Assembly: GCF_030684315.1 (NCBI RefSeq)
Contig: NC_081372.1
Coordinates: forward strand, 40,058,457 to 40,122,456
Direction: 5' to 3'
Source: Stegostoma tigrinum
Taxonomy: Eukaryota
DNA: 64,000 bases
Shown here: piece by piece, positions 2,114-61,700 of the stretch
How positions within the stretch are numbered: the stretch's first letter is position 1
How the letters are laid out: the number at the start of each line of letters is the position of its first letter
Notes under the pieces: generated by a model
The model's database searches: none
Seen by the model: only the letters and a program-made list of their open reading frames with translations
What the model was told of the DNA's origin: nothing
Translations under genes and position numbers: made by a program

Positions 2114-2312
2114 TAAAATGTGAGGCTGGATGAACACAGCAGGCCAAGCAGCATCTCAGGAGCACAAAAGCTGACGTTTCGGCCCTTCATCAGGGTCTAG
2201 GCCCGAAACATCAGCTTTTGTGCTCCTGAGATGCTGCTTGGCCTGCTGTGTTCATCCAGCCTCACATTTTATTATCTTGGAATTCTCCAGCATCTGCAGT
2301 TCCCATTATCTC
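2114..2312. mobile_element. Fold-back Penelope-like terminal mini-element (family A) with 14-bp TSD
   Basis: GCTGGATGAACACAGCAGGCCAAGCAGCATC... followed by its reverse complement; flanked by TCATAAGAGATTGA at 2100-2113 and 2313-2326; same terminus caps the GIY-YIG elements at 32230 and 60410. Confidence 0.88.
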
Positions 2313-3104
2313 TCATAAGAGATTGAAGCTTCTTCATTGGTATAGATTGCTTCCATTGTGAGCCAATAGTCAACTATCACATAATCAAAACTCCTCATTG
2401 TGAAAAACAGTGATTCAAAGCTTGTCTGTTAGATACTGAAAGGGAGTAAAATCAGAAAGGTCTGTATGATGGAATAGACAGCAATTCTTTATCTCAAATT
2501 TTGTTTGAACTTGGGACACTATCTCAATTATAATTTGGCAAACGTCACAACGACCAAGAGTTTAGGAATAGAAGGAACTTGAAATGTTATAGCACCCACT
2601 CTGGAGAAGAACTGTTTGCAGTATGTTGGACAATATGTCCAGAAGTATTTCGGAACTTGTCTGTACATCACCTAAACTTTAAGACAAATATTGGAACTTA
2701 TATTCATTTTCTTCTTATAGACTTTAACTTATAAATTCACCTCTGCTTACTCTGCAATGCTTTGTTTGTTTGTATGTGTCTGTATATGTCACAGGAAACC
2801 TAACATATTTTGCCTTTTAATAATGTTATACTCTTAATTGACTGAGTTTCAAAGAATAACACAAATTCATTAATTGCTAAATCAAAAGGTTTAATTGCTT
2901 TGCTTCTTTATAGTTGTATGTGTTTCTGCTTTTGAGTATCTCCAACAGCTTGATATCCTTTGTAAATGTGCTACCCATTTAAATCCCATTACAGAATTGT
3001 AACTTTTTGTATGCAATTGGTTTCCAGACTCAAAACAGCTTTGGGGTCAACGTGAAGGAACGAATCCACATCCAGACCTACATATGACTGAACTACAAAC
3101 CGAG

Positions 3105-3855
3105 TGGAGGCGTGTGATGTGGCGGTAATGTCTCTCTGTTTGTAACCAAGAAGACCAGGCAAATGTTTTGGACATGTGTGTTCAAATCTTCGTGGCAGAT
3201 GGTGAAATTTGAATCCAATATCTGGAATTAAGAGCTAATCTAACAGTGACCGTATAACAATTATTAACTGACATTTAAAAAAATGTCCATCTGATTCACT
3301 AATGTCTTATAGGGAGGAAATCTACCATTCCCGCCAGGTTTAACCCACATGAGACCTCAGACTTACAGAAATGCAGTTGATCCTTAACTGCATTTTGAAA
3401 TGGCTAAACAAGCCATTTAGTTGTGTCATACCACTACAAAGTCTGTCTAAATAAAGGATTCAAACCAGATGGGCCAACAATGCACATGTGGACAAAAGAA
3501 ATAATAATGGAAAACACATCCTTATTGATACTGCACGACCTCCTTATCAACTTCTGGAGATTTGTGTCAAAATTATTTGTGCTATCCCAGCAGCCTGACA
3601 CAATAAAACTCACAGAATCATACTTTACAGGCACAACTATTCAACAGGATGGATCCCCAAAGGTGGGAGCGCTGTGATGTACAGTTCAGAAGAAGTTGAC
3701 CTGGGAGTTCTCAATATTGAAACTGGATCATTGAAGTCTCGTGCTTCGGGTCATACCTCCATACCTCCTACCCTGATGAAGCAATACTATTTCAAGTAGA
3801 ACACCACTTGGAAGAAACGCTGAGGGTGTCGAGGACACAGAATGTACTCTACAAA
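3105..3855 (+). mobile_element. 5' part of a CR1-group/L2-like LINE: tRNA-like head followed by degraded APE endonuclease
   Basis: B box GTTCAAATC at 3180-3188; ORF 3423-3677 contains LINFWRFVSKL...QQPDTIKLTESY, matching APE motifs N.WGL..K and QPDI..LTES. Confidence 0.7.
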
Positions 3856-6759: not shown

Positions 6760-6895
6760 AACAAGAGACACTAGAAATCAGAAAGACAAACAGAAATTGC
6801 TGGAAAAACTCAGCAGGTCTGGCAGCATCCGTGGCAAGAAAACAGAGTTAACATTTCAAGTTTAGTAACCCCTCTTCAGAACAGCTCTGAAGAAC
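6760..6895 (-). mobile_element. Penelope-like terminal fragment (family B)
   Basis: TGCTGGAAAAACTCAGCAGGTCTGGCAGCATC...AGAGTTAACATTTCAAG...CTCTTCAG; reverse complement carries degenerate CTGAAGA...GAAATGTT. Confidence 0.7.
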
Positions 6896-6954
6896 CCTAG
6901 GTTCCATCTCCATAGTTCTGTTGCTGTTGCTGCTATCAGTGCTTGGATTAACCT

Positions 6955-9201: not shown

Positions 9202-9205
<4 letters not shown>

Positions 9206-9269: not shown

Positions 9270-9271
<2 letters not shown>

Positions 9272-10505: not shown

Positions 10506-10621
10506 GTTTAACTGTTAACTGTTCTGAAGAAGGGTCACCGGACCCAAAATGTTTACTCTGTTTTTTCCTTCACAGATGCTGACTGACCGGCTGTGCTTCT
10601 CCAGCAACATTGTCTTTGTTC
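10506..10621 (+). mobile_element. Penelope-like terminal mini-element (family B) with 13-bp TSD
   Basis: CTGAAGA-A-GGGTC-ACCG-GACCC-AAAATGTT at 10524; GGGCTTAACTGTC at 10493-10505 and 10622-10634. Confidence 0.8.
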
Positions 10622-12084
10622 GGGCTTAACTGTCACTGAGTTCCAATAGATCCAATTGACCATTAATTGACAATAAAATTGTTGTTGCTCAAAATTAAGC
10701 AGCCTCTGTCTGGTCCTAAAAGCAAAGGTTAACATGAACAGCTATGTGAAGACTTCACAACATCTGATGCTCCCACATTCAACAATAGCAACATGTTATG
10801 TCAAGAATTGGGGAAAGATAGTATAGCCTGTTGGCCTAGAGAGTACAGGTGGATTATCCTGAGGGCATTTGTGGCTAGAGAACTCGGACATGCTGAGAAT
10901 GTCTTTCAAGTTTATTTCTATTTCCTCTGAAGTCACTAAATCACATGGTCTATTGCTTCCAGAGATATTGATGGGTTTTCAGTTTATTTTATTGCTGAGA
11001 CTTAATATGAGACGTTCACAAACTCACATTTTTTTTTCAGAGGGAACTGCTGGATAGCAATCAAGTGCACCAGCCATAGTATCATATGGCAGAGGATGCA
11101 TTTAGCCTTGAAAAGATTAATCCCAATCAGTACCCCTCCTTTGCTCTTTCTCCATTATTCAGATAGTTTCCCTTTCCACTACTCGGTGACATTGAAATAA
11201 ATTTTATAACCTTTCAGCTGCCTAAGCTCACATAACACACACCAAAGTTCCAAAGTCGAAAATAACAGATTTGAATAGATATCACACATTAGAGGGCTAA
11301 GTCTAATCAGGTCTTAAACCATTGCAATGTCATGTAAGTTCAGTCCTTTTGTTAACTTCAACTTAAAACATCTAAATATGAAATGGGGAAGTATGGCTCC
11401 AAATGTCAACGTTGAATTGGCAGACTCAGTTAAATTGCTTTTCCTCTCCACTTTGAGGTGGACTTACTGTTAATCTTGCTTAACTTGAGTACAAACCGTT
11501 GCTTAAATAAAAGGAACAAAGAAAATGCCAATCATTTCCGCCCAGATTTTATGGCCTGATATAGCTTTTCTCCCTCAAATCTTTGGTGGGGGGGATGGGA
11601 AAAAAATGACCCTGTGACCTTAGCTAATCTAATATGCAAATTCAAGACCAAGGAACATTTTGCTGGACATACTGCTGAGAAGTCAGCTGATCCGCTGAGC
11701 ATTGATGGGAAACCCAATCTTTCTTTTGCAAATATGGAAATGGCGTCAGCAAGTTGTATTAAGAATCATTTTTAAACCGACAGAACAATTGCCACATTGT
11801 TCTCTTCCCACACTCCCAGCAATCACATTTACTGTAACTTTCAACTGGGAGCTGCTGTACGCTATTCTGAAGTGTACACCAGTCTGAGCAAGACTGGGGG
11901 CATACGTCTGCTTAGATAACAGCTGGTGTAGTACAGTGATTTTTTTTTAATTTAGTTTGATACAAACTGGACTTGTTTCACTGTTGGTTCATATTTTCAT
12001 GTTGCATAACTAAGCATAAAAAAATTTAATTAAAATTGCGCAGTAATGCATGTCATTGTGTCTGACCAATATGTAGAATCCTGC

Positions 12085-14217
12085 ATCATGAGTTAGGAAG
12101 CATGGACTGGGAGCAGTTGTTCCATGGTAAGGGAACTATAGACATGTGGAGACGGTTTAAGGAACAGTTGTTGGGAGTGATGAGTAAATATGTCCCTCTG
12201 AGACAGGCAAGAAGGGGTAAGATTAAGGAACCTTGGATGACGAGAGCGGTGGAGCTTCTAGTGAAAAGGAAGAAGGTAGCTTACATAAGGTGGAAGAAGC
12301 TAGGGTCAAGTTCAGCTAGAGAGGATTACATGCAGGCAAGGAAGGAGCTCAAAAATGGTCTGAGGAGAGCCAGGAGGGGGCACGAGAAAGGCTTGGCAGA
12401 AGCAATCCGGGAAAACACAAAGGCATTTTATACTTACGTGAGGAATAAGAGAATGGTCAAAGAAAGAGTAGGGCCGATCAGGGATAGCATAGGGAACTTG
12501 TGTGTGGAGCCTGAGGAGGTAGGGGAAGCCCTAAATGAGTTTTTTGCTTCTGTCTTTACGAAAGAAACCAACTTTGTAGTGAATGAAACCTTTGAAGAGC
12601 AGGTGTGCATGCTGGAATGGATAGAGATAGACGAAGCTGATGTGCTGAAAATTTTGTCAAACATTAAGATTGACAAGTCGCCAGGCCCGGATCAGATTTG
12701 TCCTCGGCTGCTTTGGGAAGCGAGAAATGCAATTGCTTCGCCACTTGCGAAGATCTTTGCATCCTTGCTCTCCACTGGAGTCGTACCTGAGGACTGGAGA
12801 GAGGCAAATGTAATTCCTCTCTTCAAGAAAGGAAATAGGGAAATCCCCGGCAATTATAGACCGGTAAGTCTCACGTCTGTCGTCTGCAAGGTGTTAGAAA
12901 GGATTCTGAGGGATAAGATTTATGACCATCTGGAAGAGCATGGCTTGATCAAATACAGTCAACACGGCTTTGTGAGGGATAGGTCATGCCTTACAAACCT
13001 TATCGAGTTTTTTGAGGATGTGACTAGAAAGGTTGATGAGGGTCGAGCTGTGGATGTGGTGTATATGGACTTCAGTAAGGCATTTGATAAGGTTCCCCAT
13101 GGTAGGCTCATTCAGAAGGTCAGGAGGAATGGGATACAGGGGAACTTAGCTGCTTGGATACAGAATTGGCTGGCCAACAGAAGACAGCGAGTGGTAGTAG
13201 AAGGAAACTATTCTGCCTGGAAGTCAGTGGTGAGTGGAGTTCCACAGGGCTCTGTCCTTGGGCCTCTACTGTTTGTAATTTTTATTAATGACTTGGACGA
13301 GGGAATTGAAGGATGGGTCACCAAGTTTGCAGACGACACAAAGGTCGGAGGTGTCGTTGACAGTGTAGAGGGCTGTTGTAGGCTGCAGCGGGACATTGAC
13401 AGGATGCAGAGATGGGCTGAGAGGTGGCAGATGGAGTTCAACCTGGATAAATGCGAGGTGATGCATTTTGGAAGGTCGAATTTGAAAGCTGAGTACAGGA
13501 TTAAGGATAGGATTCTTGGCAGCGTGGAGGAACAGAGGGATCTTGGTGTGCAGATACATAGATCCCTTAAAATGGCCACCCAGTGGACAGGGTTGTTAAG
13601 AAAGCATATGGTGTTTTGGCTTTCATTAACAGGGGGATTGAGTTTAAGAGTCGTGAGATCTTGTTGCAGCTCTGTAAAACTTTGGTTAGACCGCACTTGG
13701 AATACTGCGTCCAGTTCTGGGCGCCCTATTATAGAAAAGATGTGGATGCTTTGGAGAGGGTTCAGAGGAGGTTTACCAGGATGCTGCCTGGACTGGAGGG
13801 CTTATCTTATGAAGAGAGGTTGACTGAGCTCGGTCTCTTTTCATTGGAGAAAAGGAAGAGGAGAGGGGACCTAATTGAGGTATACAAGATAATGAGAGGC
13901 ATAGATAGAGTTGATAGCCAGAGACTATTTCCCAGGGCAGAAATAGCTAGCACGAGGGGTCATAGTTTTAAGCTGGTTGGTGGAAAGTATCGAGGGGATG
14001 TCAGAGGCAGGTTCTTTACGCAGAGAGTTGTGAGAGCATGGAATGCGTTGCCAGCAGCAGTTGTGGAAGCAATGTCATTGGGGTCATTTAAGAGACTGCT
14101 GGACATGTATATGGTCACAGAAATTTGAGGGTGCATACATGAGGATCAATGGTCGGCACAACATTGTGGGCTGAAGGGCCTGTTCTGTGCTGTACTGTTC
14201 TATGTTCTATGTTCTAT
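12085..14217 (+). mobile_element. Young 5'-truncated CR1 LINE, ORF2 reverse transcriptase with a single frameshift
   Basis: 573-aa ORF with KSPGPD, NYRPVSLTS, YMDFSKAFDKV, GVPQGSVLGP, KFADDTK; continues in a second frame to 14128; (TTCTATG)n tail at ~14197-14217. Confidence 0.97.
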
Positions 14218-20096: not shown

Positions 20097-20189
20097 TTCT
20101 GGTTTTTCTGATGAAGGGTCTAGGCCCGAAATGTCAGCTTTTGCGCTCCTGAGATGCTGCTTGGCCTGCTGTGTTCATCCAGCCCCACA
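20097..20189 (+). mobile_element. Penelope-like terminal fragment (family A)
   Basis: CTGATGAAGGGTCTAGGCCCGAAATGTCAGCTTTTG...TTCATCCAGC; GGATGT duplicated at 20091-20096 and 20190-20195. Confidence 0.85.
20108..20135 (+). ncRNA. Minimal type-I hammerhead ribozyme motif (PLE-associated)
   Basis: CUGAUGA core, stem II GGGUC/GGCCC, GAAA, then UGUC (family consensus GAAAC-GUC seen at 46153-46160); activity untested. Confidence 0.65.
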
Positions 20190-21990: not shown

Positions 21991-22796
21991 ACAATACCAA
22001 AGTAATGGTGAAAGTGCTGGTGTGCCACTACAAAGACAGAAGTTGTCAGAAACGTAAGGCCATATGAAACCCAACATTTGTTGGATGACTAGGAAATATC
22101 CCATAGATGCAGCCAAGGGCTTCAATCACACAATACAAACAAGAGCTAACAACTGAGACCAATGATATAATTAAACTCAGATGGATATGTGTTTCACAAA
22201 TAAAATCATCTCATGTCTCTTGGAAAAGATTCAAATTGCTTCAAAACAATACCTTCAATTTTATTTTTGGTATTCTTTTTCTTACATGGAATGTGGGCAT
22301 CAATGGAAAGACCAACATTCCTGGTCCACCCATAATTACTTTTGAGGTGGTGATGGTGAACCCCTTCTGGATTTGCTACTGGCCATATGCGGTGGACACA
22401 CCCACAGTATTATTAGGAAGGGAGTTCCAGGATTTTGATTCACTTTTTTTAAATTCACACACGGGAATCGGGTATCACTTGCTGGGCCAGGATTTATTCT
22501 TTGCCTCTGGTCAAATTGTGAAGGTGATAGTGTGATGCAGGAACAGGGTACTAAGTTGGATGATCAACCATGATTATTTTGAATGGTGGAGCAGGCTCAA
22601 ATGGCTGAATGGCTTACTCCAACTCCTATTTTCTATGTTTATATGAATGCAGTGGTTACAAGAGCAGGTTAGAGTTTACACAAGTAACTTACCTTCTGAC
22701 TCCCCAGAACCTGTCCATCATCTATGAGGCACAAGTCAGGCGTGAGATAGAATGCTGTACACTTGCCTGGATAAGTGCAGCTCTAACAATATTCAG

Positions 22797-23023
22797 AGAC
22801 GACGCAGCATGGAGCTGGAGGAACACAGCAGGTTAGGCAGTGTCAGAGGAGCAGGAAAGTTGACATTTTGGGTCAAGAACCTTCTTCTGCAAAATCATTT
22901 TCTGAAGAAGGGTCCTGATCCAAAATGTCAACATTCCTGCTCCTCTGACATTGCCTGGACTGCTGTGTTCTCCCAGTTCCACACGGTGTTGTCTCTGACT
23001 CCAGCATCTGCAGTTCTTGCTAT
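22797..23023. mobile_element. Fold-back Penelope-like mini-element inserted in an L2-like LINE fragment
   Basis: Inverted arms around CTGAAGAAGGGTCCTGATCCAAAATGTC; flanked by CTCTAACAATATTCAG (22781) and CTCTGACAACATTCAG (23024), 14/16 identical. Confidence 0.8.
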
Positions 23024-23084
23024 CTCTGACAACATTCAGTAAGCTTAACTCCATCCGTGATCAAGCAATTCACTTGTTTAGCAT

Positions 23085-23278
23085 AACAAAGTGTGGAGCT
23101 GGATGAACACAGCAGGCCAAGCAGCATCTTAGGTGCACAAAAGCTTTTCTGCTGAAGGGTCTAGGCCCAAAACATCAGCTTTTGTGCTCCTAAGATGCTG
23201 CTTGGCCTGCTGTGTTCATCCAGCCCCACATTTTGTTATCTCGAATTCTCCAGCATCTGCAGTTCCCATTATCTCTGA
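23085..23278. mobile_element. Fold-back Penelope-like mini-element (family A) with 15-bp TSD
   Basis: Inverted arms; TCACTTGTTTAGCAT at 23070-23084 and 23279-23293. Confidence 0.88.
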
Positions 23279-24494
23279 TCACTTGTTTAGCATCACAGAT
23301 TTTCTTTGTTGACATGCCAGAAATATCACAGAATTCCAAATTTCTGACCTGCCTTATATCACTTGGGTAAAACATAAGCAGTTAAAACGCAATTCAGAGA
23401 AAATGTTAGGTATGGCAGGGAAACAGAGTTGCTACTCTTCATGGTGGTAAACCCATCATTCTGCATCCATTATCAATGTAATAGTCAATTTGTAACACCA
23501 TGTAATGAGATAGTAAAACATCACTCAATGATAAATAAATGTACTCTGGATAGCAATGTATGAGCTTCTTCAGTCATAAAAGATTATATATAAGGCTCCA
23601 GCCCTAATATTTCATTTCTTACAATAACTAGTTATCATGATTTCTTTATAGATGAACCTGAGAGAAAGTTGTTCAAGACTCAAACAAAATAAAACTTTTC
23701 CAGTCTTTGCTTCAAAGAGGACAAATGTTGATTCTAAATACAATGTCCTTGTTGATAAAGGTGAGCTGTCAAGGACAGTGACCCACATCAGTTCCAGCCA
23801 TCTAATCTAGATCAACAGGGGCAAACTCCAGAATTTCATCACAATTCAAATTTCAACAATTGTGTTGGATCACATACACCCAAACACACATACAAATCCC
23901 TCAGCTAGAATACTTCAGAAACTGGGATAAATCTCTAACACTTAAGGAAATTTTTTTCTGTTCTGATGTAGGAACAACATAACCTAAGATGTACCAATAA
24001 CAGATCTTGCAGCTTGCCAGTAGTGGGGAAGATGGCAGACCACCCAACTATCCATAAGCCAATTAAGGTCCCAAAGTGACCAGTTAAGGAATATTTAAGG
24101 ACTTCTTCTCACTGCCAGTAGTACTTTATCACCTTTCTTTTTGCCCAAATTCTCAAGATTCCAATATATATGAAGCATAATCTAGATTGGTTTCAAACTG
24201 ATCAATAGTTTCCCTCTCCGCATCATGAAACCTGGCAAAAAATATATTAATAAGTAATTTGAAACTTTATGCCTCATAAATCACTACACAATTTCTGACA
24301 TCAATCAGGAAGTTTCTGCTTCCATACTTCCTCACAAGTATTACAGTTGGGTTAAGGATTGTACCAGAAGAGACATGGCATTAGAGTATTCAAATATCCT
24401 CTGACAAACGTGAGGCATAGCCCTAGTGGGCCTAAAAGTGAGCTAAATCATCCTTATTTAAATAATTGATGTCTTCACACATAGTTTCCAATCT

Positions 24495-30445: not shown

Positions 30446-33105
30446 AACTAGTATTTGAGAAACAAATGAATGCACTGCAACAGTCATGCACTCCATTCAG
30501 GTCCAAAAGTATAGCAGGAAAAACGGTTCGAACATGGCGAACAAAATCAATGAAGGAATAAGACCAGAGCTAAAGACAAGTAATTTGTGAGAAAAAGTAG
30601 GAAGCCTGAGGACTGACAGCAGTTTATAATTTAGCAAAGGAGGACTAGGAGGTTGGGTATGAAGACAAAATAGAGAATGAGAATAAACTTACAAGGATCA
30701 TAAAAGTGGACTAAGATCTTCTGTAAGTAAAAAGAAAAAGATTAGTGAAGACAGATGTGGAGCCCGCAGTGTGTGTAAGGAAATGCAAAACAAATAAGCC
30801 ACAGAACATCATTAGTAGAAGGTAAATGCTAGGTATGAGATAACAGGACACTTTGAAAATATGAACAAGATCAGACAAGGCCAACTCAGATTTATGAAAC
30901 AAGATCATGTTTGATAGCTAGATGAACACAGCAGGCCAAGCAGCATCAGAGGAGCAGGAAAGCTGCCGTTTTGGGTCTAGACCCTTCTTCAGAAATGAGA
31001 GAGGGGGAGGCAGATAGAAGATGGATAGAGGAGAAGATAGGTGGAGAGGAGACAGGTGGGTCAAAGAGGTGGGGATGGAGCCAGTAGAGGTGAGCATAGT
31101 GGGGGAGGTAGGGAGGAGATACGTCAGGCCTGGAAGGACAGACAGGTCAAGGGGGCAGGATGAGGTTAGTAGGTAGGAGATGGGTATGGGGCTTGAGATG
31201 GGAGGAGATCATAGGTGGGAGGAAGGACAGGTTAGGGCGGCAAGGACAAGCTCCCATGCAATTCACACAACTCATCCCTCACACGCCCTCCATGCAATAA
31301 TAACCAAAACAGAATCCCCCTCGTACCTCTCCACCAACCTTCGGATCCAACGCATCATCCTCCGACACTCCTGCCATCTGCAATCTGAGCCCACGACCAA
31401 AGACTTTCTCCCTCCCCACCCTTATCTGCTTCCTGGAGGGACCACTCTCTCTGGTCCTCCCTTGTCCACTCTGCACTCCACTCCAGCCCCACCACACCTG
31501 GCACTTTTCCCTGCAACTGCAGGAAGTGCTACACCTGCCCCCACACCTCCTCCCTCACCCCTATCTCAGGCCCCAAGAAGGCTTTCCACATCAAGCAGAT
31601 GTTCACCTGCACATCTGCTAATGTGATATACTGCATTTGCTGTCCCCGTTGTGGCCTCCTCTACATCGGGGAAATCAAACGGTGGCTTGGGGACCGCTTT
31701 GCAGAACACCCAGGCTCGGTTCACACTAAACAACTGCACTTCTCAGTGGCGAACCATTTCAACTCCCCCGCCCATTCCTCAGACGACAAGTCCATCCTGG
31801 GCCTCCTACAGTGCCACAATGATGCCACTCGAAGATTGCAGAACAGCACCTCATATTCTGCTTGGGAACCCTGTAGCCCAATGGTATCAATGTGGACTAC
31901 ACAAGCTTCAAACTTTCCCCTCCCCCCACCCCATCCCAGAAACAGCCCAACTTGTCCCTGACCTGTCCTTCCTCTCACCTGTCCCCTCATCCCACCTCAA
32001 GCCCCATACCCACCTCCTACCTACTAACCTCATCCTGCTCCCTTGACCTGTCCATCCACCCTGGGCTGACCTATCTCGTCCCTACCTCCCGGCCTACACT
32101 CACCTTTACTGGCTCTATCCCTGCCTCTTTGACCTGTCTGTCTCCTCTCCACCTATCTTCTCTCTATCCATCTTCTATCTACCACCCCTCTCGCTGTTTA
32201 TTTCAGATCCCCCTTCCCCTCCCCCATTTCTGAAGAAGGGTCTAGACCCAAAACGTCAACTTTTCTGCTCCTCTGACGCTGCTTGGCCTGCTGTATTCAT
32301 CTAGCTATCAAACATCATTTTAATTCATAAACTGAGTCAGCCTTGTATGATCTCATTCATATTTTCAAAGTATCCTGTTACCTCATACCTAGCATTTACC
32401 TCCTATTGATGTTAGGCTATCTGGTCTGTAATTCCCTGTTTTCTCCTTCCCTCCATTCTTAAATAGTGGGGTTACATTTGCCACACTAAAATCTGCTGAA
32501 AATATTCCAGAATCTACAGAATTTTGAAAGATAACAACCAACTCATTAAGTTACGGCATGACCACCACTTTTAGGACCCTGGGGCATAGATTATCAGGTC
32601 CTAGGGATTTATTAGCTTTCGGTCCTATTAATTTCTCCAGCACTTCTTTTCTTCACTCACGCTAATTTCCTTCAAATTATATTCCCAACAGACCCTTGGA
32701 TCCCTGGCATTCTTGGGAAGTTATTTGTGACTTCCTCTGTGAAGACAGAACTACAGTAAATATTTAATTGTTCTGCGGCTTATTTGTTTTGCATTTCATT
32801 TCACACACTGCGGGCTCCACATCTGTCTTCACTAATCTTTTTCTTTTTACTTACAGAAGATCTTAGTCCACTTTTATGTTCCTTGTAAGTTTATTCTCAT
32901 TCTCTCCCAATGTCCCAGTCCTCCTTTGCTAAATTATAAACTGCTGTCAGTCCTCAGGCTTCCTACTTTTTCTCACAAATAGCTCTAATCTTATCCTTAA
33001 TTGATTCTGTTAGCCATGTTTGAATCATTTTTCCTGTTGTACTTTTGGACCTGAATGGAATGCATGACTGTTGCAGTGCATTCATTTGTTTCTCAAATAC
33101 TAGTT
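30446..33105. repeat. Large imperfect inverted repeat (old CR1 flank plus PLE terminus in both arms)
   Basis: ACTAGTATTTGAGAAACAAATGAATGCACTGCAACAG (30447) vs CTGTTGCAGTGCATTCATTTGTTTCTCAAATACTAGT (~33068); arms ~30446-31250 and ~31960-33105. Confidence 0.9.
31250..32305 (+). mobile_element. Penelope-like element 3' part with GIY-YIG endonuclease remnant, preceded by an inverted terminal copy (30915-31250)
   Basis: FTCTSANVIYCICCPRCGLLYIGEIKRWLGDRFAEH...VANHFNSPAHS; terminus CTGAAGAAGGGTCTAGACCCAAAACGTC at 32230. Confidence 0.92.
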
Positions 33106-36075: not shown

Positions 36076-37879
36076 GAAAGATGTAGTGGGAAGTAGATCC
36101 TGGCCTGAGGTCATCTTGCATGATTGAATAACTCCTGCATCCAAAACCACTGCCATCAAATTCTGACCTTAGATGCAAAAACCACAAATGGCCTGCAGCC
36201 TTTGAATTTGCGCTAAATGAAGCAAAACACTGTTCTGTTCTAATGTACAGAATTATCATTGTGTAAGACAGCTTGCACCAACAATCATCTGTGTGTTAGC
36301 AAGTCCATTAATTTCCTTTCTATCTTAATCAAAGAGAGTGCTTACCTTCTCAGGTTTCACACAATACACAGTAAAGCAAACATAAGGCTTCATAACAACC
36401 AGTCACAATACCATTTTATCATCCATTGCGTGAATGTGCCATGTTGACTGCCGCAGTCACTTTTATTATACTAATTAAAATTCACAAAACTATTACCTTA
36501 GTCACTGCCATTTTATAAATTTTACACATATTTGGAATTGAATGGCAACTCATAGAAATATAATAAGTTCATTGGCAGTACAGCTTTAACAATAGGAAAT
36601 GTCCATCATGTATGTATGAGAAATAATTAACATGAAGAAGAGAGCAAGAAAATGAACCATTAAACAACGCCTTACAGATAGTTTATAAACTCTGAATACT
36701 GTAAAGAGATTGCTCCACTAAAAGTATTGCGTTTTTTTTTAAAGTCAAGATATCCTTTGATAACAAATGTATACCACCTTGCAGACCACGTGATCATACA
36801 TTCAGGCCACAATATTAAAATATTCATTGAAGCTAAATGTAAAAGGAATCTGGCAGACACCAACAGTGTGGAATTTTACCCCACTCACAGTAATCTTAGT
36901 GTTGCCTCACATTTCATGTGCTACCCAATGTCTAGAGTTAACACCCACTCTGGACTCAGAGTGGAAAGCATGTAAATAGATACATTATAAGCTTAGGTTA
37001 TCCTGTTCATGAAAGTAGTTTATTTAAAAAAGGGCATCAGTTCAGCAAAAAAACTCTACAGTCAAATAATATACATCTTAAAAGGTACAAGAGCACTTTC
37101 CTTTCAGTGCAAGGATTTATATCACATTGCTTCAATGTTGCTGATTTTTAAAAATAGCTTTTATATACTTTCTGTTTCATTTTTCTCTCTTGATGACTGG
37201 TACTTTTTAGGGATTGACAGAACTCCAATAATTTAGCACAGGTTTATTAGCTTAGTGTAGTCTTAATCAGCAAACACAAGCAGATTACTTAAATGCGAAA
37301 GGCATCTTGAAACAGCCTGAAAACAAGAAGCAGGAGAGAGGAGAACCCAGAGGTAATTACTTGCAGCCAGATGGCCAGGAGAGGGGAGAGACTGTCACCA
37401 GCACCTGAATGAGTGGGAGAGAACTTTCTTAACTAGCACCAGGAAAGAAAGAATTTACACATACTGGATCAAGAATTGATTTGTGAATCAGTGGGAAGGA
37501 TGTAAGGGTGCAAATATACAAAAAAATTATAAAGAGGTGTACACATCAGCATAATTATCATAAAGGACTTTAATTACCCATATATAAACTGGGATAGTGG
37601 TAATGTGAGCGTAAATGAAGGATAAACAATCCTAGATTGTGTTCAGCAGGATTTTCTGCAATTGTATGTGACCAGTCCAACAGGAAAAGACAGATTTTTT
37701 AACTCTAGTTCTTTTTAATGAGGTGGGCCAAGCAGACCAAGTAATTGTGGAGTAACAATTAATGTACAATCATCATTACAATGGAAGGTTGAGGATGACG
37801 ATATAAAATGATGGCGGTCAATCAATTTGTGGACCATGGACTTCAAGAACAGAGTTAGATCAGGTGTAGAGGAACAATG

Positions 37880-39147: not shown

Positions 39148-39867
39148 ATGCTTAACTAACTTGCTGGAATCTTTTAAGGAAGCAACAGAGAGGATTAATG
39201 AAGGAAAGCTGTTGACGTGGTATACATAGACTTCCAAATGTTTCGGATTTGTGCATTTTCATGATAAGCCATTGAATCTCCTTTCATGTGATCTATTCAC
39301 ATGATCCAGCTGAGTTCACTTGACATTGAAAAGGGCTGAATTTCGGCTATTTTTTCTCTGAATAAATCACATGCGTTAATTATCCCAATGGTTCTTGCTA
39401 GGAAAGATCAGCTGACTCAACACTGAATCAAATCTGGAATTTTTTCTTTCCAACATAATGCTTCTCATGTGATAATTATCACATGCAAACCACTGAAGTA
39501 GTTTGTTGCACTTTCCTAACGGGTGGTACAATTTAAAGCTTTCAAATAGCATCCAAAGCCATTTGTTGGAATGTGTTCCAAATTTTATCTGCCCTCTGCT
39601 CTCTGACTTCATTCCTGAATGGTTTAGATTTAATCTTGAAGATTTGGCTACTCAGGAAAGGAATGCAAACAGTTTCCCTAATGTCATCTACAGTAAAGTA
39701 TGTTGGTTATTAAGATCAAGATTCCCTAATTTGTTATGGTTCCAGATGTGATACCATGACTGCCAAGTTCCTTAGATAAGGAGGATGAATTAGGTCCTCC
39801 CTATACTCACCCATCCCCTCATTCAGTTGCAACAAGTTTAATTTGTAAAGATCCCTTTCCAATGGAA

Positions 39868-39971
39868 AGATAACAAAGTGTGAAGCTGGATGAACACAGC
39901 AGGCCAAGCAGCATCTTAGGAGCACAAAAGCTGACATTTCGGGCCTAGACCCTTCATCAGGAGCTCTGATG
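39868..39971 (-). mobile_element. Penelope-like terminus (family A) with hammerhead motif at 39933-39960
   Basis: Reverse complement reads CTGATGAAGGGTCTAGGCCCGAAATGTC; followed by a short inverted stub CATCAG-GAGCT-CTGATG. Confidence 0.85.
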
Positions 39972-41919: not shown

Positions 41920-42380
41920 ACAGATGTTAAGTGAAGTATGGAAAAGCACAGCCAGTCAGGCAGCATCTGAGGAACAGGAAAGTCAATGTCTCAGGTCTTG
42001 ACGAAGGGTTTTGGCCTGAAACATTGACTTCTCTGCTCCTCGGATGCTGTCTGACATGTTGTGCTTTTCTGAGCTCCACATTTAATCATTTTGGCTTTAG
42101 CATCTGCAATTCTTACTGTCTCCAAGTCACTGAAAACCATACTGCAAAGTCTCTTCTAAGGATGCTCACCTTGAAGAAATTTTCCTCCTCTGTCCACAGA
42201 GAGCTCAATGAATCTCTCTCACACTGCAACCCCCTTGTTACTCCTCTGCGAGTCCTGATGAAGAGTTTTGGCCCAAAATATTGAGTTTCCTGCTCCTCGG
42301 ATGCTGTCTGACCTGCTGTGCTATTCCAGCTCCACATTTATTGACTTTGGCTTCCAGCATCTGCAGTCCTTACTGCCTTT
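41920..42380. mobile_element. Older Penelope-like termini (one inverted, two direct copies)
   Basis: TTGACGAAGGGTTTTGGCCTGAAACATT (~41998) and CTGATGAAGAGTTTTGGCCCAAAATATT (~42255), each followed by CTGCTCCTCGGATGCTGTCTGAC. Confidence 0.72.
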
Positions 42381-42734: not shown

Positions 42735-42945
42735 GGTGTATGATACAAACAGAAACAGAAAATGCTAGAACAGCTCAAGACGTCTGGCAGCATCTGCGAA
42801 GGGAAATCTGAGTTAATGTTTATGGTTCTGAAGAAGAGTCACTGAACAAGAAACATTAACTCTGATTTCTCTCCATAGATGCTGCCAAACCTGCTAAGCC
42901 TTTGTGTTTCTGATTGCCAGCATCTGCAGTTCTTTCAGATTTTAT
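42735..42945. mobile_element. Fold-back Penelope-like mini-element (family B)
   Basis: TCTGGCAGCATCTGCG...GAGTTAATGTTT then CTGAAGAAGAGTCACTGAACAAGAAACATTAACTC...AGATGCTGCCA. Confidence 0.7.
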
Positions 42946-45375: not shown

Positions 45376-45763
45376 CAGTTATGATGATGTGACAAGGAGC
45401 TGCGAAGTCACTGTTACAGTTGGACTAATCTTTCTGAGCAGCTGCTAACCCCACTTTTCTCATAGGGCTAATTTTTTCTATAGTGTGATTTTTTTATGAA
45501 ACAATGTTGTGCTGGAATGCAACCATCATACTATAGCGAACACCTTGTATTGAAGATGATTTCATATTACTTTGGCCTTGCTGCCTTATACAAGCATTAA
45601 GCTTCAGACTAATCCAAAGAGGTTGTACGCTGAAATGAGCAACATGCAACTTATTGAAGTTATAGGCAACATTCATGCGACTTAATGGACCTACTACCAC
45701 ATTATTCATTTAATATACCAAAAAGTCATGAGAAAGCTCCTACTAGGAATCCTCATTAAATTC

Positions 45764-46171
45764 AGAGATAATGGGAACTGCAGATGCTGCAGAATCTGAG
45801 GTAACAAAGCGTGGAGCTGGATGAACACAGCAGGCCAACCAGCATCTTAGGAGCACAAAAGCTGGCGTTTCGGGCCTAGGCCCTTCATCAGAAAAGGGGG
45901 ATGGGGAGAGGATTCTGAAATAAATAGGGAGAGAGGGGGAAGTGGACGGAAGATGGAGAAGACTGGTGGAGAGGAGGTCATCGGTGGGAAGGTAGGAAGG
46001 GGGTGGGTCAGTCCCACCTCCCTACCTTCCCACCTATACGCTCCTCTCCACCTATCTTCTCCTCTATCCATCTTTGGTCCGCCTTCCCCTCTCTCCCTAT
46101 TTATTTCAGAATCCTCTTCACATCCCCCGTTTCTGATGAAGGGTCCAGGCATGAAACGTCAGCTTTTGTGC
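45764..46171. mobile_element. Fold-back Penelope-like element (family A) with 14-bp TSD and two opposed hammerhead motifs
   Basis: TCCTCATTAAATTC at 45750-45763 and 46172-46185; motifs at 45864-45891 (-) and 46133-46160 (+). Confidence 0.9.
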
Positions 46172-46839
46172 TCCTCATTAAATTCTGACATGGTTCACAA
46201 AATGGCTCCAAATTTTTAGTATGCTATTTTCAACTCACACCCTCTATCTATCAACTCCCCATATTGGGCCTTTTTACAACTCTCACACTGGGAATACTGG
46301 GCCTTTTTACAATTCCCATGCTGGCAATAATAAGCTGAAGCAAATTATATTGAATATATTCACATAAAAGTTTATAATGCATTTAGAACTCTACTAATTG
46401 AATAGAATGGAATTATAGATGTAATAAGGATTCATACATGATTACCTATTGGTACAATTTCAAGGTTATTGGAAGGCACTGCAATCATTGAATCAGCAAC
46501 CATTCTTCCATTTGATTCTCTTTTCTACTTTAAACTGGTTTGAAAAATACAAGAGATTAGAAGAAAAATATTATCTCCTTGGTTAGAAGATTTGTCATAC
46601 TTCAAACTCTTCATAGGTAATAAGATTGATTATTTACATTTTTAATTTACACTACAGGCTGAATTGATCATGATAGCTAATAGAGAACAGAGCAGAATAG
46701 TTGTGGCAGATGTATTTCATTATAATTCCATATGCAGAATAAGATACATATCCCTTCCAGATTCTTTCTTACCCCCAATACGATCTGCAGATCAAATATG
46801 TAAATGAAACCACCAAGTTTAATGTAAATTACAAATCAT

Positions 46840-53856: not shown

Positions 53857-53959
53857 TGTCCTGAGGAAGGGTCACGGGACCCAAAATGTTGACTCTCATT
53901 TCTCCTCACAGTTGCTGCCAGACCTGCTGACCTTTCGAAGAAACTTGTTTTTGCTTGTA
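53857..53959 (+). mobile_element. Penelope-like terminal mini-element (family B) with 11-bp TSD
   Basis: CTGAGGAAGGGTCACGGGACCCAAAATGTT; AATAAATTGTA at 53846-53856 and 53960-53970. Confidence 0.8.
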
Positions 53960-56774: not shown

Positions 56775-58320
56775 AAGAACAACACACCACAGGAACAGGC
56801 GCTTTGTCCTCCCAGCCCGTGCCAACACATTTCACCCTTCCATTTTAAAACTGTCTTCACTTACCAGGTCCATATCCCTCTATTCCCTTCCTATTCGTTT
56901 ATTTGTCTGGGGGCTTCTTGAATGCTGCCTTTGTGTCTGCTTCCACTGCCTCCTCTGGTGGCGTGTTCCAGGTACTCACCACCTTTTGTGTGAAAAACCT
57001 GCCTTGTACATCTCTTTTAATCAAGGCTCCTTGCACCTTGAACCTGTGTCCCCCAGTTATTGAGTCCTCCACCCTGGGAAAAAGCCTCATACTTTTCACT
57101 TTATCCATGCCATTCACAATCTTATAAGGTTCTATCAGGTTACCTCTCAACCTCCCACCTTCCAGTGAAAACAAACCCAGTCTATCCAACCTTTCTGCAT
57201 ATCTAAAATCCCCCATTTCAGACAACATCCTGGTAAGCCTTCTATGTACCCTCTCAAAGCATCCACATCTTCGGGTAGCATGATGACCAGAACTGAATAC
57301 AATATTCCAAGTGTGGTCACACTAAAGTTCTATAAAGCTGCAGCATAACTTGCCTATCCTTATAGTTAATGCCCTTTCCAATGAAAGCAAGCAATCCATA
57401 GGCCTGTTTTACTACTTTATCAGGCTGCGCTGCCGCCTTCAGTGATCTGTGGAATGCACACCCAGGTCTCTCTGAAAATGAATACTCAAAGGGTTCTGCC
57501 ATTCACTGCATAACTTCTGCCTGTATGTGACTTTCCAAAATGCATCACCTTACATTTTTCCTGATTAAACTCCATCTGCCATTTTTCTGCCCCTGCTGTA
57601 TCCTGACAATCCTCTTCAGTATCCACAACTCCACCAATCTTTGCATTGTCCCAAACTTAAAATTAGATCAGCTAAGTTTTTCTCCAAATTATGTGTGTCG
57701 ATCATGAACAGCAGAGGCCCCAGCACTGGACCCTATGGACCATCACTAGTCACAGCCCCCGATCCGAAAAACATCCTTCTACTGCTACTCTCTGTCTCTT
57801 ATGGCTAAGCCAGTTCTGCATCCATCTTGCTAGCTCCCCCATGATACCATGTGATTTCACATTTTGTACCAGTCTGCAGTGAAGGACCTTGTCAAAGGCT
57901 TTAACCAAGTCCATATAGACAACATCAACCACTTTTTCCTCATCAATCAAGTTAGTGTGCCATGACCTCCTCTGCTCAAACCATGCTGTTTATCACTTAT
58001 TAGTCCATTTGCTTCAAAATGCTTATAGATCTTATTCTTGAGAATCTTTTCCAATACTTTCCCACCACTAATGCGAGGCGTACAGGCCTGTAATGTCCTG
58101 GATTATCCCTGTTCCCCTTTCTCAACAAAAAGACAACATTAGTTATTCTACAGTCATCTAAACTTTATCTGTGGCCAAAGAGAATACAAAGATGTTTGCC
58201 AATGGTCCAGCATTTGTTCCCTTGCGTCGCTCAAAATTCTAGGAGAGATCCCAGCTGGTCCCAGGGACTTATCTATCTTAACACTTTCTGAGATGCATAC
58301 CACCTCTTTCGTTTTAATCG
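56775..58320 (-). mobile_element. CR1 LINE ORF2 3' half, decayed
   Basis: VDVVYMDLVKAFDKV...WMQNWLSHKRQRV; VKQAYGLLAFI; RLDRLGLFSLEGGRLRGNLIE...FFTQKVV. Confidence 0.92.
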
Positions 58321-58439
58321 AAACTTGGCTGAAAAAGGGTCAGTGGGTTTAAAACATTAACTCTGCTTTCTCTCCACAGATGGTTCCAGGCCTGCTTGAG
58401 CTTCTCGAGTAATTAGTATTTTGTTGCTAAAGTTGAATG

Positions 58440-58880
58440 TTGCCTTCCACAGATAAAAGTAATTTGAAGAATACGGAAGAGAATATTTTGAGCTAAATTA
58501 AATGCATAGATAGGAGAGGCAGTGACAGATAACACTGAGAGATAAGAACATAGGAATTGATAGAAAAAACTGGCAATCTATCTCATTCACTTTTCACCAG
58601 TTATAATGGAGTTGATAGCTAATCATAACAATCAACAAGTGCTTACTTCCATGATCTCTCTTAGGAGCTTTATCCATAGATTGGACCCTCTCTCACTGAG
58701 ATATTGCATCTATGTGTCTTGGGTGAACAGCGTTACAAGCAATGGGGAGGCCTGTACAGGATCAGGAGCATATTTGTAATTGAAGCAAGCTTTGCCAAGA
58801 CCCTTGAACACAGACTAGAGATTAGCATTCCATATCTGGACCAATTAGGGAAAACATGCTGCACCCATTCTATCTGTGAA
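58440..58880 (+). pseudogene. Heavily degraded HARBI1-like transposase remnant
   Basis: DRKNWQSI (~58559; cf NRKG.HS), MELIANHNNQQV (~58606; cf VQLV.DH), EQRYKQ...VIEASF...YLDQLG (58725-58850; cf E.RYN...VIE..F...CLD.SG). Confidence 0.5.
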
Positions 58881-58916
58881 AGTTCTCTATTTGAAAGCAC
58901 CCATGCAGGTTTCAGA

Positions 58917-61700
58917 ATGGCTACAAGAAAGCTTGCTTCAGAAGCAAACTGACTCTTCCCTGGAGGTGATGCTGGAGGGATAAGGCCCAGATATCAGTCT
59001 TTAATGGAGAAACAAATCAGACACATGAAGCAGAAATGTCTGGAAATAATCGATGTTGTGAGAAGAGTAATGCCAAGAACTTGGATTCAACAGCCTCATG
59101 AGTTCCAGGAAGTAGTTTACTAAATTCAAATCGCATCTATCACTGACCTCCCTGGTATTCTCAGTGCAGCAATTTGGTTGACATATTTTGCAATTCCACA
59201 TAATTCTTTCTTTCCAAGCACTGAGACCCAAATCTCCATTTGAATGGCTAACATTCTCACCCCCATCCATTTGCTATTTTGTATCATTTCTCAGAGTTAC
59301 CCAGTGCATGTTTTATCTCCATCTGCAACACACATTTTATTTCTCACACTCATTATTCTGTTTTGTCTTATTGCAGTAGAAAAAGGCACTCAACTCTCTG
59401 GAGGGAGCAAGGACAGGATATAGATTGTAGCAGTTGTAGTCACCCTGCCTGCTTCGGAGGATGGATACTTTGAGATAGCAGGGTGGCATATACATTAAAT
59501 GTTGGCAATGGAAAGATGCAGATTGCCCAGAGACAGGGTAACAACATTAGATTGTGCATTGTGACTTGACATTTGATTTGATGTCAACAGTAACTGAAAT
59601 TTTATAGTTTGCACTCTGCTGCCCTTTTCCTAATGTCAACACCAATGTCTTTCTTCATCTCCTACAGGTCCTTAATTGGTGCTAAAGAGTTTATGAGGCA
59701 GAAATTTGAGGAGTCTCATAAAAGGCCAAGAACTCTAAGGAATTACATGAATCATTCACACTCTCCACCAGCATATCTTGGTAGACATTGGAGTAAATGC
59801 AACAAGGTTGTTGCATGATAAGGCACCAAGACATGCAGCTAGGATTTGGAGACATAGACATCAGTGGAGAGTCCCTGTAGAAGGACATAGGACACTAAAC
59901 TCTGTTCACTTAAGTATTGATGACTTAAGGGAGAACAATAAAAACAAGGGGGATATTCATGTGTTTCTGTCAACATGTTAAAATACAGTATGAACCCTTG
60001 GAGACAGATTAAAGGAATCTTCTCCAGTGTGAGTGTTGTGCTATTTCAGGCATTTCTGCTGATATCTATCTCCATGAAAAGAGTGGTGAACTGCATGAAG
60101 AATGGAAGCAACCAGGCCATTAAGTGTATGCTGGCCTGGACGAATGCTCTGCACACCCTAACCACCACTTTGCATAGGACGGAGGACAACCTCACCTTGG
60201 TTGTCAACAACTTTCTACCTCGCGGTTCTTCCACACTTGGTTTGCAGTCAATGCAGATGGGCCATAAAAGAGGGAATATGGTAGTCAGGGTTTTCCTCAA
60301 GGTGTTCCCAATTCTCCTCCCTTGGCCATTCTCTGTAACATTCCCCACCACAAACTAGACAGAGCTTTGGTTGCACTCTCAAGTTCCCCTCAACTAAGGC
60401 TGCCACTGGGAACTGCAGATGCTGGAGAATCCACGATAATAATGTGTGAAGCTGGATGAACACAGCAGGCCAAGCAGCATCTCAGGAGCACAAAAGCTGA
60501 TGTTTCAGGCCTTGACCCTTCATCAGAGAGGGGGATGGGGTGAGGGTTCTGGAATAAATAGGGAGAGAGGGGGAGGCGGACCGAAGATGGAGAGAAAAGA
60601 AGATAGGTGGAGAGGAGAGTATAGGTGGGGAGGTAGGGAGGGGATAGGTCAGTCCAGGGAAGACGGACAGGTCAAGGAGGTGGGATGAGGTTAGTAGGTA
60701 GGAAATGGAGGTGCAGCTTGGGGTGGGAGGAAGGGATGGGTGAGAGGAAGAACAGGTTAGGGAGGCAGAGACAGGCTGGGCTGGTTTTGGGATGCAGTGG
60801 GGGGAGGGGAAGAGCTGAGCTGGTTGTGTGGTGCAGTGGGTGGAGGGGACGAACTGGGCTGGTTTTGGGATGCGGTGGGGGAAGGGGAGATTTTGAAGCT
60901 TGTGAAGTCCACATTGATACCATTGGGCTGCAGGGTTCCCAAGCGGAATATGAGTTGCTGTTCCTGCAACCTTTGGGTGACATCATTGTGGCACTGAAGG
61001 AGGCCCATGATGGACATGTCATCTAAAGAATGGGAGGGGGAGTGGAAATGGTTCGCGACTGGGAGGTGCAGTTGTTTATTGCGAACCGAGCGGAGGTTTT
61101 CTGCAAAGCGGTCCCCAAGCCTCCGCTTGGTTTCCCCAATGTAGAGGAAGCCACACCGGGTACAATGGATACAGTATACCACATTGGCAGATGTGCAGGT
61201 GAACCTCTGCTTAATATGGAAAGTCATCTTGGGGCCTGGGATAGGAGTGAGGGAGGAGGTGTGGGGGCAAGTGTAGCAATTCCTGCAGTTGCAGGGGAAG
61301 GTACCGGGTGTGGTGGGGTTGGAGGGCAGTGTGGAGCGAACAAGGGAGTCACGGAGAGAGCGGTCTCTCCGGAAGGCAGACAGGGGTGGGGATGGAAAAA
61401 TGTCTTGGGTGGTGGGGTCAGATTGTAGATGGCGGAAGTGTCGGAGGATGATGCATTGTACTATACAAGTTGGTCAGTCTCTGGTGGTATTCTCATAAGC
61501 TCCAAAACCTAGGGGAGATCTGTAATAAGCATTTCATCTGACAGAGCAGGAAAGTGAGCAAATTCCATCCAGCCCATCTGAAACCACAGGGTTTGCACCA
61601 TATAGAATTAAAAGGAAACAGATGAGAAAACAGTTGCACAAGAGAATTAACTTGGCTGCTTGTAATACATTTACTGGTGTTGCTACTTATTTCAATAAAT
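58917..61700 (+). pseudogene. Spliced Harbinger Myb/SANT gene fossil, interrupted by a PLE
   Basis: ATG 58917 MATRKLA, TDSSLEVMLEG, KQKCLEIIDVVRRVMPRTWIQ, RK*F; acceptor TTGCAG|59377 *KKALNSLEGARTG...FEIAG; donor 59537|GTAACA; acceptor CCTACAG|59668; basic tail and AATAAA near 61694 (3' extent inferred). Confidence 0.68.
60407..61453 (-). mobile_element. Penelope-like element 3' part with open GIY-YIG endonuclease domain and hammerhead motif (60499-60526)
   Basis: ORF 60757-61227 FTCTSANVVYCIHCTRCGFLYIGETKRRLGDRFAE...VANHF...EQQLIFRLGTLQPNGIN; terminus identical to family A mini-elements. Confidence 0.95.

What the first reader, a model, noticed from the sequence alone, without database searches (positions are those of the whole stretch)
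2114..61453. Dispersed minimal hammerhead ribozyme motifs in two or more Penelope-like families
Seen: CTGA(T/A)GA - hairpin - GAAAC - GT(C/T) recurs, often degenerate, at 2173-2193(-), 10524(+), 20108(+), 22902(+), 23149(+), 32230(+), 39933(-), 42255(+), 45864(-), 46133(+), 53861(+) and 60499(-). It sits at the terminus of both GIY-YIG elements. Stem II varies but keeps pairing: GGGTC/GGCCC (G-U), GGGCC/GGCCC, GGGTC/GACCC, GGGTC-ACCG-GACCC. Known: PLE termini carry minimal type-I hammerheads with a very short palindromic stem III that may need dimerisation. Inference: this genome holds a very large number of ribozyme-bearing termini on both strands. Many copies have lost GAAA or GTC in a way consistent with CpG decay, and stem I looks weak (about 2 bp).
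Basis: partly seen in the sequence, partly recalled or inferred. Interest (0 to 1): 0.72.

Follow-up and report, generated by a model that had tools for sequence, protein, structure and literature searches.

The report
Penelope hammerheads record start and cut
The repeated motif is the small, predicted self-cutting "hammerhead" RNA already known from Penelope-type jumping genes, here in mostly broken copies, and the places where the copies begin likely mark both where the element's RNA starts and where this RNA scissors cuts in the living animal.

Summary
The motif is real. It is the minimal type-I hammerhead (CUGANGA, bulged A, short stem II, GAAAC-GUH with no loop III) of Cervera and de la Pena 2014, in the pLTR of Neptune-like Penelope elements. 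The genome holds 117,917 exact copies (reversed control 0). None of the 12 cited window sites matches that strict pattern; CpG decay is confirmed.

Copy 5' ends pile up at two places:
- Four bases before CUGA: 7,928 versus 2,786 and 2,576 at the neighbouring bases, usually after an extra G. This is likely the capped transcription start.
- At the predicted cut: 3,740 versus 624 and 541. Fold-back junctions there number about 2,400 arm hits (estimated), against 100 and 57 at control palindromes. This is likely a footprint of cleavage in the germ line, about 4-6% of copies.

Cleavage was not shown: no RNA run was available, no U6 fusions were seen, and non-fold-back junctions are only about 2-fold enriched. 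Long copies read through the ribozyme uncut. The scan has noted both end signals before, in this genome and others; my literature searches found neither in print.

The parts
2113..2317 (.). Head-to-head pair of short family-A1 pLTR stubs (short and long 3' end), 14-bp target duplication; the motif at 2173-2193(-) is a junction chimera with collapsed stem II
6850..6879 (-).
10524..10553 (+). Family-C hammerhead motif, G12 lost
20107..20189 (+). Solo family-A stub starting at the ribozyme's front edge; motif 20108-20135 with U-G wobble in stem III
22793..23029 (.). Older family-A3 head-to-head pair; motif 22902-22929(+), G12 lost
23083..23279 (.). Family-A2 head-to-head pair with 15-bp target duplication: the minus arm begins exactly at the predicted cleavage site (23145), the plus arm at -5/-4 (23144); motif 23149-23176 decayed
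30810..32319 (.). Family-A3 inverted pair of 5'-truncated elements; GIY-YIG remnant 31389-31961(+); motifs 30965-30992(-) and 32230-32257(+), both with G12 lost
39867..39960 (-). Solo family-A stub starting at the ribozyme's front edge; motif 39933-39960 with U-G wobble in stem III
41931..42370 (+). Family-D partial tandem with two decayed motifs (41998-42025, 42255-42282); the first copy runs into sequence resembling the ORF start, and a short inverted arm lies in front
42828..42857 (+).
45762..46175 (.). Family-A inverted pair with 14-bp target duplication; motifs 45864-45891(-) (U16.1 lost) and 46133-46160(+) (core intact, stem II damaged)
53861..53890 (+). Family-C-like motif with a compensatory stem I start (C-G first pair), G12 lost
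60407..61473 (-). 5'-truncated young family-A1 element: zinc-finger-like linker and GIY-YIG endonuclease remnant (60757-61473), pLTR with motif 60499-60526 (GAAACATC)

Best explanation
These are minimal hammerhead motifs in the terminal repeat (pLTR) of very abundant Penelope-like retrotransposons, and most copies are short stubs that likely arose when the element's reverse transcriptase ran off one of two RNA ends: the likely capped transcription start four bases before the ribozyme, or, less often, the predicted self-cleavage site. Shown: motif, host element (RT plus GIY-YIG ORF), copy number, two fixed 3' ends, head-to-head pairs with target duplications, and two sharp 5'-end peaks. Inferred steps: (1) an RNA polymerase II promoter in the pLTR starts RNA at -4, so the ribozyme sits at the 5' tip of the transcript and stem I cannot exceed about 4 bp; (2) the element protein nicks both target strands and primes two cDNAs, from the +65 and +101 start sites, as shown in vitro for the Anolis element; (3) cDNAs started near the RNA's 5' end run off after about 95 or 135 nt and copy the cap as an extra G; (4) a minority of RNAs are cut after GUC, probably as dimers or with protein help, and give stubs that begin at +1; (5) the two cDNAs join head to head through short 3'-end pairing. 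Cleavage is not required for transposition. Its likely effect is to remove the capped first 32 nt. The dispersed copies are decaying by-products.
For: Host element: ORFs of 700-830 aa with DKG, YIDD, a CX4CX2C linker and GIY-YIG motifs, and the motif about 230 nt past the stop; Pfam GIY-YIG 18.2 bits, below cut-off. Structure beyond the search pattern: 123 descriptor hits in 1.224 Mb against 0, 1 and 0 in controls; 116 of 123 have the bulged nucleotide. The first stem-I pair, not part of the descriptor, is U-A in families A/A3/C and A-U in family E; cross-family swaps pair in 0-2%. 3' ends: 77 short and 67 long of 180 young copies; 35 of 50 young pairs have one long and one short arm, matching the two RT start sites in PMC11167929. 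Front-edge peak: 76 of 278 sampled copies start at -7..0. Genome-wide 7,928 start at -4, 2,786 at -5 and 2,576 at -3. G precedes in 83, 42 and 51 of the first 100 listed; in A/T contexts 14 of 21 at -4 versus 1 of 24 at -5 (hand counts; Fisher p=1e-5). Cut-site peak: 11 of 278 (10 of 180 young) against about 1 per neighbouring position (Poisson p=9e-8). Genome-wide 3,740 versus 624 and 541. 64 of the first 100 listed have the fold-back prefix (about 2,400 if scaled; 48 are paired perfect hairpins), against 100 and 57 for two other 4-nt palindromes. Solo copies beginning at +1 with target duplications (L233, L235) and tandem restarts at +1 (L236, L243, L250, L251) were seen among 30 loci. There is no peak at the foot of stem II, the strongest helix.
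Against: No RNA data; cleavage and the start site are read from DNA only. The cut-site excess is mostly in fold-back junctions, which fix the end only to within 1-2 nt. Without them it is about 1,000-1,350 versus 541-624, roughly 2-fold (hand count). In a T-rich subset it is 15 versus about 7. No recurring upstream sequence such as a U6 fusion among 100 of 229 listed matches. Of 30 loci holding the ORF 5' region, 8 read seamlessly through the upstream ribozyme, 2 end at other places in the pLTR and none begins at -4 or at the cut, so long copies come from longer uncut RNA. The predicted monomer fold of family A pairs CUGAUG with CGUCAG and has no stem I; the intermolecular stem III is worth only -3.1 kcal/mol. 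PMC11167929 found no RNA-seq reads ending at the Anolis cut and no need for cleavage in vitro. The cut-site peak was not tested genome-wide in a family with a non-palindromic +1..+4. The Inr/TCT-motif match and cap-to-G copying are recalled; my one search for a citation gave none usable.
Confidence: 0.72

Rival explanations
1. The motif is a real hammerhead homologue, but the peak at the cut site is a reverse-transcriptase stop or a favoured microhomology landing site (AGCU is self-complementary), with no cleavage in vivo.
For: Most of the excess is in fold-back junctions centred on AGCT. Arms from the RNA start can land on the same bases, as at window 23144. Non-fold-back enrichment is only about 2-fold. 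No U6 fusions were seen. The predicted monomer fold is inactive.
Against: Two other 4-nt palindromes, 5 and about 27 nt away, give 100 and 57 fold-backs against about 2,400. Perfect hairpins contain no RNA-start arm. Solo and tandem copies begin exactly at +1. There is no stop at the foot of stem II.
Confidence: 0.2
2. The short copies are a separate non-autonomous SINE- or retrozyme-like family with its own short master RNA, not run-off products of the full element's RNA.
For: Very high copy number and two narrow length classes, about 95 and 135 nt. Non-autonomous PLE derivatives are proposed in bioRxiv 10.64898/2026.07.22.740005.
Against: The stubs match the pLTR of long elements and share both 3' ends. 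Pairs join short arms to long ORF-bearing arms, and some tandem junctions carry the ORF start. No tandem array of such units was found in the window. A subfamily-by-subfamily comparison of stubs and long copies was not done.
Confidence: 0.08
3. Circular-RNA model: cleavage at both pLTRs and ligation are obligatory, and more-than-unit copying of the circle makes the tandems (proposed in PMC4209133).
For: 8 of 30 loci read seamlessly through the upstream ribozyme, which a re-ligated circle would also give. A cut-site footprint exists.
Against: About a quarter of copies stop at -7..0 with an extra G, which a circle cannot give; only 4-6% stop at the cut. Read-through RNA from tandem arrays explains the seamless copies. 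Ribozyme mutants transpose normally in vitro (PMC11167929).
Confidence: 0.08

Closest known systems
Minimal hammerheads (min-HHR) in pLTRs of metazoan Penelope-like elements (Cervera and de la Pena 2014, PMC4209133; dimer cleavage by Lunse et al., known here only through the review PMC6765202)
   Same: CUGANGA and GAAA core, extra nucleotide after A9, G10.1-C11.1, palindromic 15.2-16.2 without loop III, type-I topology, mostly single dispersed copies from truncated elements, several families per genome.
   Different: The main family has a 4-bp stem II and 2-bp stem I (7-8 and 4-5 bp in the Schistosoma families). 117,917 exact copies of one pattern against about 9,000 (Xenopus) and 4,000 (coelacanth) found with another descriptor. 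The paper reports no in vivo evidence.
Poseidon PLE of Anolis carolinensis, PAc (Frangieh et al. 2024, PMC11167929)
   Same: Two adjacent RT start sites about 35 nt apart that define the tail; both target strands are cut and extended; uncut RNA is the main template; ribozyme in the pLTR.
   Different: This element has a CX4CX2C linker (Neptune-like), and its likely ORF start lies about 150 nt past the cut rather than at stem II. PAc showed no RNA ends at the cut, whereas here 4-6% of genomic copies begin there.
EN+ PLE insertion architecture: inverted pLTR, optional tail, short target duplication (PMC8557442, PMC3846280); pLTR-internal promoter with Inr of Drosophila Penelope (PMC2377424)
   Same: Head-to-head palindromic junctions, tail on one arm only, target duplications of 7-15 bp, partial tandems.
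   Different: PMC3846280 read the palindromes as self-priming on an antisense template. Here one long and one short arm per pair (35 of 50) fits two priming events. The start site inferred here abuts the ribozyme.
Non-LTR retrozymes (PMC7229834, listing only; bioRxiv 10.64898/2026.07.22.740005)
   Same: Type-I hammerhead, no coding capacity in most copies, link to PLE pLTRs.
   Different: Retrozymes are tandem arrays of units, each with a ribozyme. These copies are dispersed solo or inverted stubs.

Membership tests
Minimal type-I hammerhead of PLEs (min-HHR) | Core CUGANGA ... GAAA ... NUH | tested here: met
   117,917 exact genome matches; 56 of 100 young copies intact; mostly broken in the window
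Minimal type-I hammerhead of PLEs (min-HHR) | Extra nucleotide between A9 and G10.1; stem II closed by G-C | tested here: met
   116 of 123 descriptor hits use the one-base offset; stem II pair probabilities 0.86-1.0 in short constructs, 0.5-0.6 in the 132-nt one
Minimal type-I hammerhead of PLEs (min-HHR) | Loop-less palindromic stem III (A-C-G-U) | tested here: met
   ACGT in the majority of young copies, changes almost all CpG transitions
Minimal type-I hammerhead of PLEs (min-HHR) | Stem I with covariation | tested here: met
   First pair U-A in A/A3/C and A-U in E, cross-family swap 0-2%; only 2 bp in the main family, 3-4 bp in others
Minimal type-I hammerhead of PLEs (min-HHR) | Location in the pLTR of a PLE | tested here: met
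   Motif downstream of the ORF in long copies and again in front of the ORF in 8 of 30 loci
Minimal type-I hammerhead of PLEs (min-HHR) | Self-cleavage after NUH, as dimer or protein-assisted | not testable with these tools
   Only an indirect genomic footprint
Rfam hammerhead families | Match to a curated covariance model | tested here: not met
   No hammerhead family among 40 matches at E up to 10 in the window; intact copies elsewhere were not scanned
EN+ Penelope-like element | Single ORF with RT and C-terminal GIY-YIG | tested here: met
   ORFs of 700-832 aa with RT and GIY-YIG motifs read by eye; Pfam GIY-YIG E=0.003, below cut-off, and no Pfam RT hit
EN+ Penelope-like element | pLTR tandems, inverted 5'-truncated partner, optional 30-40 bp tail | tested here: met
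   124 of 278 copies in head-to-head pairs; ends at about +65 and +101; target duplications
Neptune clade | CX2-5CXXC linker between RT and EN | tested here: met
   CX4CX2C in the window remnant and long ORFs; feature as described in PMC8557442
Neptune clade | Phylogenetic placement of the RT (versus Nematis) | not tested
   No tree built; no named reference proteins fetched
Non-LTR retrozyme | Tandem array of units, each with a ribozyme | tested here: not met
   No such array in the window; sampled copies are solo or inverted; the genome was not screened for arrays

The most novel reading that the evidence does not exclude
The genome preserves a base-resolution record that the Penelope RNA is capped four bases in front of its hammerhead and that this minimal ribozyme cuts in the germ line, removing the 32-nt capped tip. 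The PLE hammerhead would then be a cap-removing switch at the transcript's 5' end rather than a device for cutting unit-length RNA out of multimers.
Probability: 0.55. Interest if true: 0.68.

Novelty: new member of a known kind. Interest (0 to 1): 0.48.

Why it matters
The ribozyme itself is known. What it does for Penelope elements is an open question: activity in vitro is low, cleavage is dispensable for insertion in vitro, and no RNA ends at the cut were found in vivo. Thousands of insertions that begin at the predicted cut, and many more at a likely capped start just before the motif, make the question testable at exact coordinates. They suggest a role at the 5' tip of the RNA. They also show that the large count of ribozyme copies is a by-product of run-off reverse transcription.

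Tried and rejected
Rfam scan of the window: no hammerhead hit; the miRNA hits at 45.9-46.1 kb are the inverted PLE pair.

The window's U6atac-like copy is not fused to a PLE.

Five-base-pair stem II for the main family: rejected, 2-nt loop; the three family-A monomer energies and the dimer energy computed with it are invalid and unused.

Chance motif: rejected.

Selection on individual copies: core bases decay like their neighbours and CpG sites fastest.

Solved structures: no match for the ORF. The protein atlas gave no result.

The exact target-duplication finder found a duplication in 11 of 44 solo copies, too few to test the extra G that way. A DPE-like match at +28 was considered by eye and not supported.

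Lunse et al. is not held. The cap-to-G citation search gave nothing usable. Sixteen regions, eight and four fell on short contigs and returned nothing; the random sample stayed at 1.224 Mb.
Full report
OBSERVATION. All 12 sites are present. A degenerate pattern gives 15 sites in the window against 0.28 expected (50 Markov controls). The window lies at G000:C23:40,058,457-40,122,456 of a 3.2-Gb assembly. The strict pattern has 117,917 exact matches there and the reversed control 0. Earlier scan notes call the organism a shark; I did not test this. None of the 12 sites matches the strict pattern: six lost G12, two lost U16.1 or G16.2, two carry a U-G wobble in stem III, and two keep the core with a damaged stem II. 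Rfam has no hammerhead hit in the window.

HOST ELEMENT. The 238-aa remnant at 60757-61473(-) finds copies 93-96% identical across the genome; 150 of 314,844 first-look candidates were scored. Sixteen 10-kb stretches around such copies hold ORFs of up to 832 aa with DKG, YIDD-type RT motifs, a CX4CX2C linker and a GIY-YIG domain. Pfam sees GIY-YIG below its cut-off and no RT. The linker is described for Neptune and Nematis (PMC8557442); no tree was built. A motif from the ORF's 5' region has 835 copies. Of 30 such loci, 8 carry a seamless upstream pLTR with the ribozyme and 2 end elsewhere in the pLTR; the rest are truncated or inverted. The likely start codon lies about 150 nt past the cut (read by eye).

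STRUCTURE. I sampled 56 arbitrary 20-kb stretches plus the window with 20 kb on each side, 1.224 Mb in all. A general descriptor gives 123 hits against 0, 1 and 0 in controls; 116 have the unpaired base after A9. Families are A1/A2 and A3 (4-bp stem II, CUAG loop, GUC), C (5-bp stem II, GUU), D, and E (6-bp stem II; not in the window). Stem I was not in the descriptor. Its first two pairs form in 78-100% of hits in every family. The first pair is U-A in A, A3 and C and A-U in E, and cross-family swaps pair in 0-2%; the second pair does not discriminate, with swaps at 73-89%. The main family has only 2 bp. Its predicted monomer fold pairs CUGAUG with CGUCAG and is inactive. The intermolecular stem III is weak (-3.1 kcal/mol), whereas two copies can form a 12-bp duplex through stem II and its palindromic loop (-22.6). 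In 100 young copies the CpG bases have changed in 6-23% and other motif bases mostly in 0-6%; 56 keep the core. This is neutral decay.

ENDS OF THE COPIES. Of 283 anchors, 278 were long enough to analyse; scaled up, that is about 700,000 family-A/A3 copies. 3' ends fall at about +65 or +101 from the cut (77 and 67 of 180 young copies). 124 of 278 copies are in head-to-head pairs; 35 of 50 young pairs have one long and one short arm. Three of four window pairs tested have exact 14-15-bp target duplications. This fits the two RT start sites and two-strand priming shown for the Anolis element (PMC11167929).

5' PEAK 1, FRONT EDGE. 76 of 278 copies begin at -7..0. Genome-wide exact counts, requiring three non-consensus bases in front, are 7,928 at -4, 2,786 at -5 and 2,576 at -3. 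Among the first 100 listed, G precedes in 83, 42 and 51. Many of these Gs can come from an inverted partner. Keeping only triplets that start with two A/T bases and dropping AAG gives 14 of 21, 1 of 24 and 8 of 19 (hand counts; p=1e-5 for -4 versus -5). Position -4 fits a TCT-type motif in A1 and an Inr in A3, and RT can copy a cap as G; both are recalled, and my search found no citation. A pLTR-internal promoter with Inr is published for Drosophila Penelope (PMC2377424). I infer a capped start at -4.

5' PEAK 2, THE CUT. 11 of 278 copies begin exactly after GUC, one of them doubtful; among young copies 10 of 180 do, against about 1 per neighbouring position (p=9e-8). One other position, 9 nt further on, has 6; several of these are partners of arms that end at the cut or the start. 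Genome-wide counts are 3,740 at the cut, 624 one base before and 541 one base after. Of the first 100 listed, 64 have the fold-back prefix (48 in paired perfect hairpins), 9 have AGG and 27 other. Because AGCT is self-complementary, I counted fold-backs at two other 4-nt palindromes: 100 and 57. Among 30 loci are solo copies starting at +1 with target duplications, tandem restarts at +1, and one mere deletion. The window has an example at 23083-23279. Limits: fold-backs fix the end to within 1-2 nt; other junctions are only about 2-fold enriched; no U6 fusion in 100 of 229 listed; no RNA run; no genome-wide test in a non-palindromic family.

MECHANISM. Transcription likely starts at -4. The protein primes two cDNAs from +65 and +101. 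Near the RNA's 5' end they run off after about 95 or 135 nt (lengths), and they join head to head. A minority of RNAs have been cut, probably as dimers or with protein help. Long copies come from priming further downstream on longer RNA and pass the ribozyme uncut. That no full-length copy in my sample begins at -4 is a point against a simple unit-length transcript.

LITERATURE SEEN. PMC4209133: parts 1-2 of 4 and a term search of two supplement files; no shark there, and file 1 could not be searched and may bear on this. PMC11167929: parts 1-2 of 4. bioRxiv 2026.07.22.740005: part 1 of 5 and passages, supplements closed; one chondrichthyan was sampled. Passages only: PMC8557442, PMC6765202, PMC6155905, PMC2377424, PMC3846280, PMC6789731, PMC12934576. 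PMC7229834: search listing only. Lunse et al.: not held, known through PMC6765202. Searches showed no paper mapping PLE insertion ends to the ribozyme cut or to a start in front of it; subscription journals are not covered.

EARLIER SCAN NOTES. Both end signals were noted before in this genome and others. I saw these notes after my own counts; they are not independent support. One note on another genome reports almost no copies at the cut.

VERDICT. A new member of a known kind. The ribozyme call is secure (about 0.95), the start-site reading likely (about 0.8), and in vivo cleavage likely but unproven (about 0.65-0.7). Interest 0.48.

Noticed in passing
window 36247-36367 (-): U6atac-like sequence, Rfam 38.2 bits (gathering 33), diverged; not fused to a PLE end.
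   Followed up: partly
window 12066-14128 (+): LINE-type reverse transcriptase ORF of 585 aa (Pfam RVT_1 E=1.5e-34) with a frameshifted continuation; further LINE fragments elsewhere in the window.
   Followed up: no
window 63544-63882 (+): Fragment with weak SGNH/GDSL-like match (E=7e-4, below cut-off), likely a LINE ORF1 esterase remnant.
   Followed up: no
L089-L090, L117, L135, L137, L153, L213 and L077-L078: Family E PLE hammerhead with 6-bp stem II and reversed stem-I first pair; four copies share the same junction inside stem II behind a common A-rich sequence, suggesting a derived subfamily with half a ribozyme.
   Followed up: no
genome-wide list: About a quarter of the 100 listed T-rich junctions show a short direct duplication of the 8 bases just after the cut site, possibly RT slippage between two GC dinucleotides.
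   Followed up: no
L062:3949-4100: A family-A3 stub directly followed by a family-C stub that starts at its ribozyme: a PLE stub inserted into, or joined to, another.
   Followed up: no
main family, loop II: Loop II (CUAG) is palindromic, and stem II plus loop can form a 12-bp intermolecular duplex (-22.6 kcal/mol), a possible dimer nucleation site.
   Followed up: partly
window 60775-60888: 39-bp tandem repeat at the ORF's C-terminal end, giving a variable Pro/Ser/Gln-rich tail; an 18-bp repeat lies near the N-terminus of long copies.
   Followed up: no
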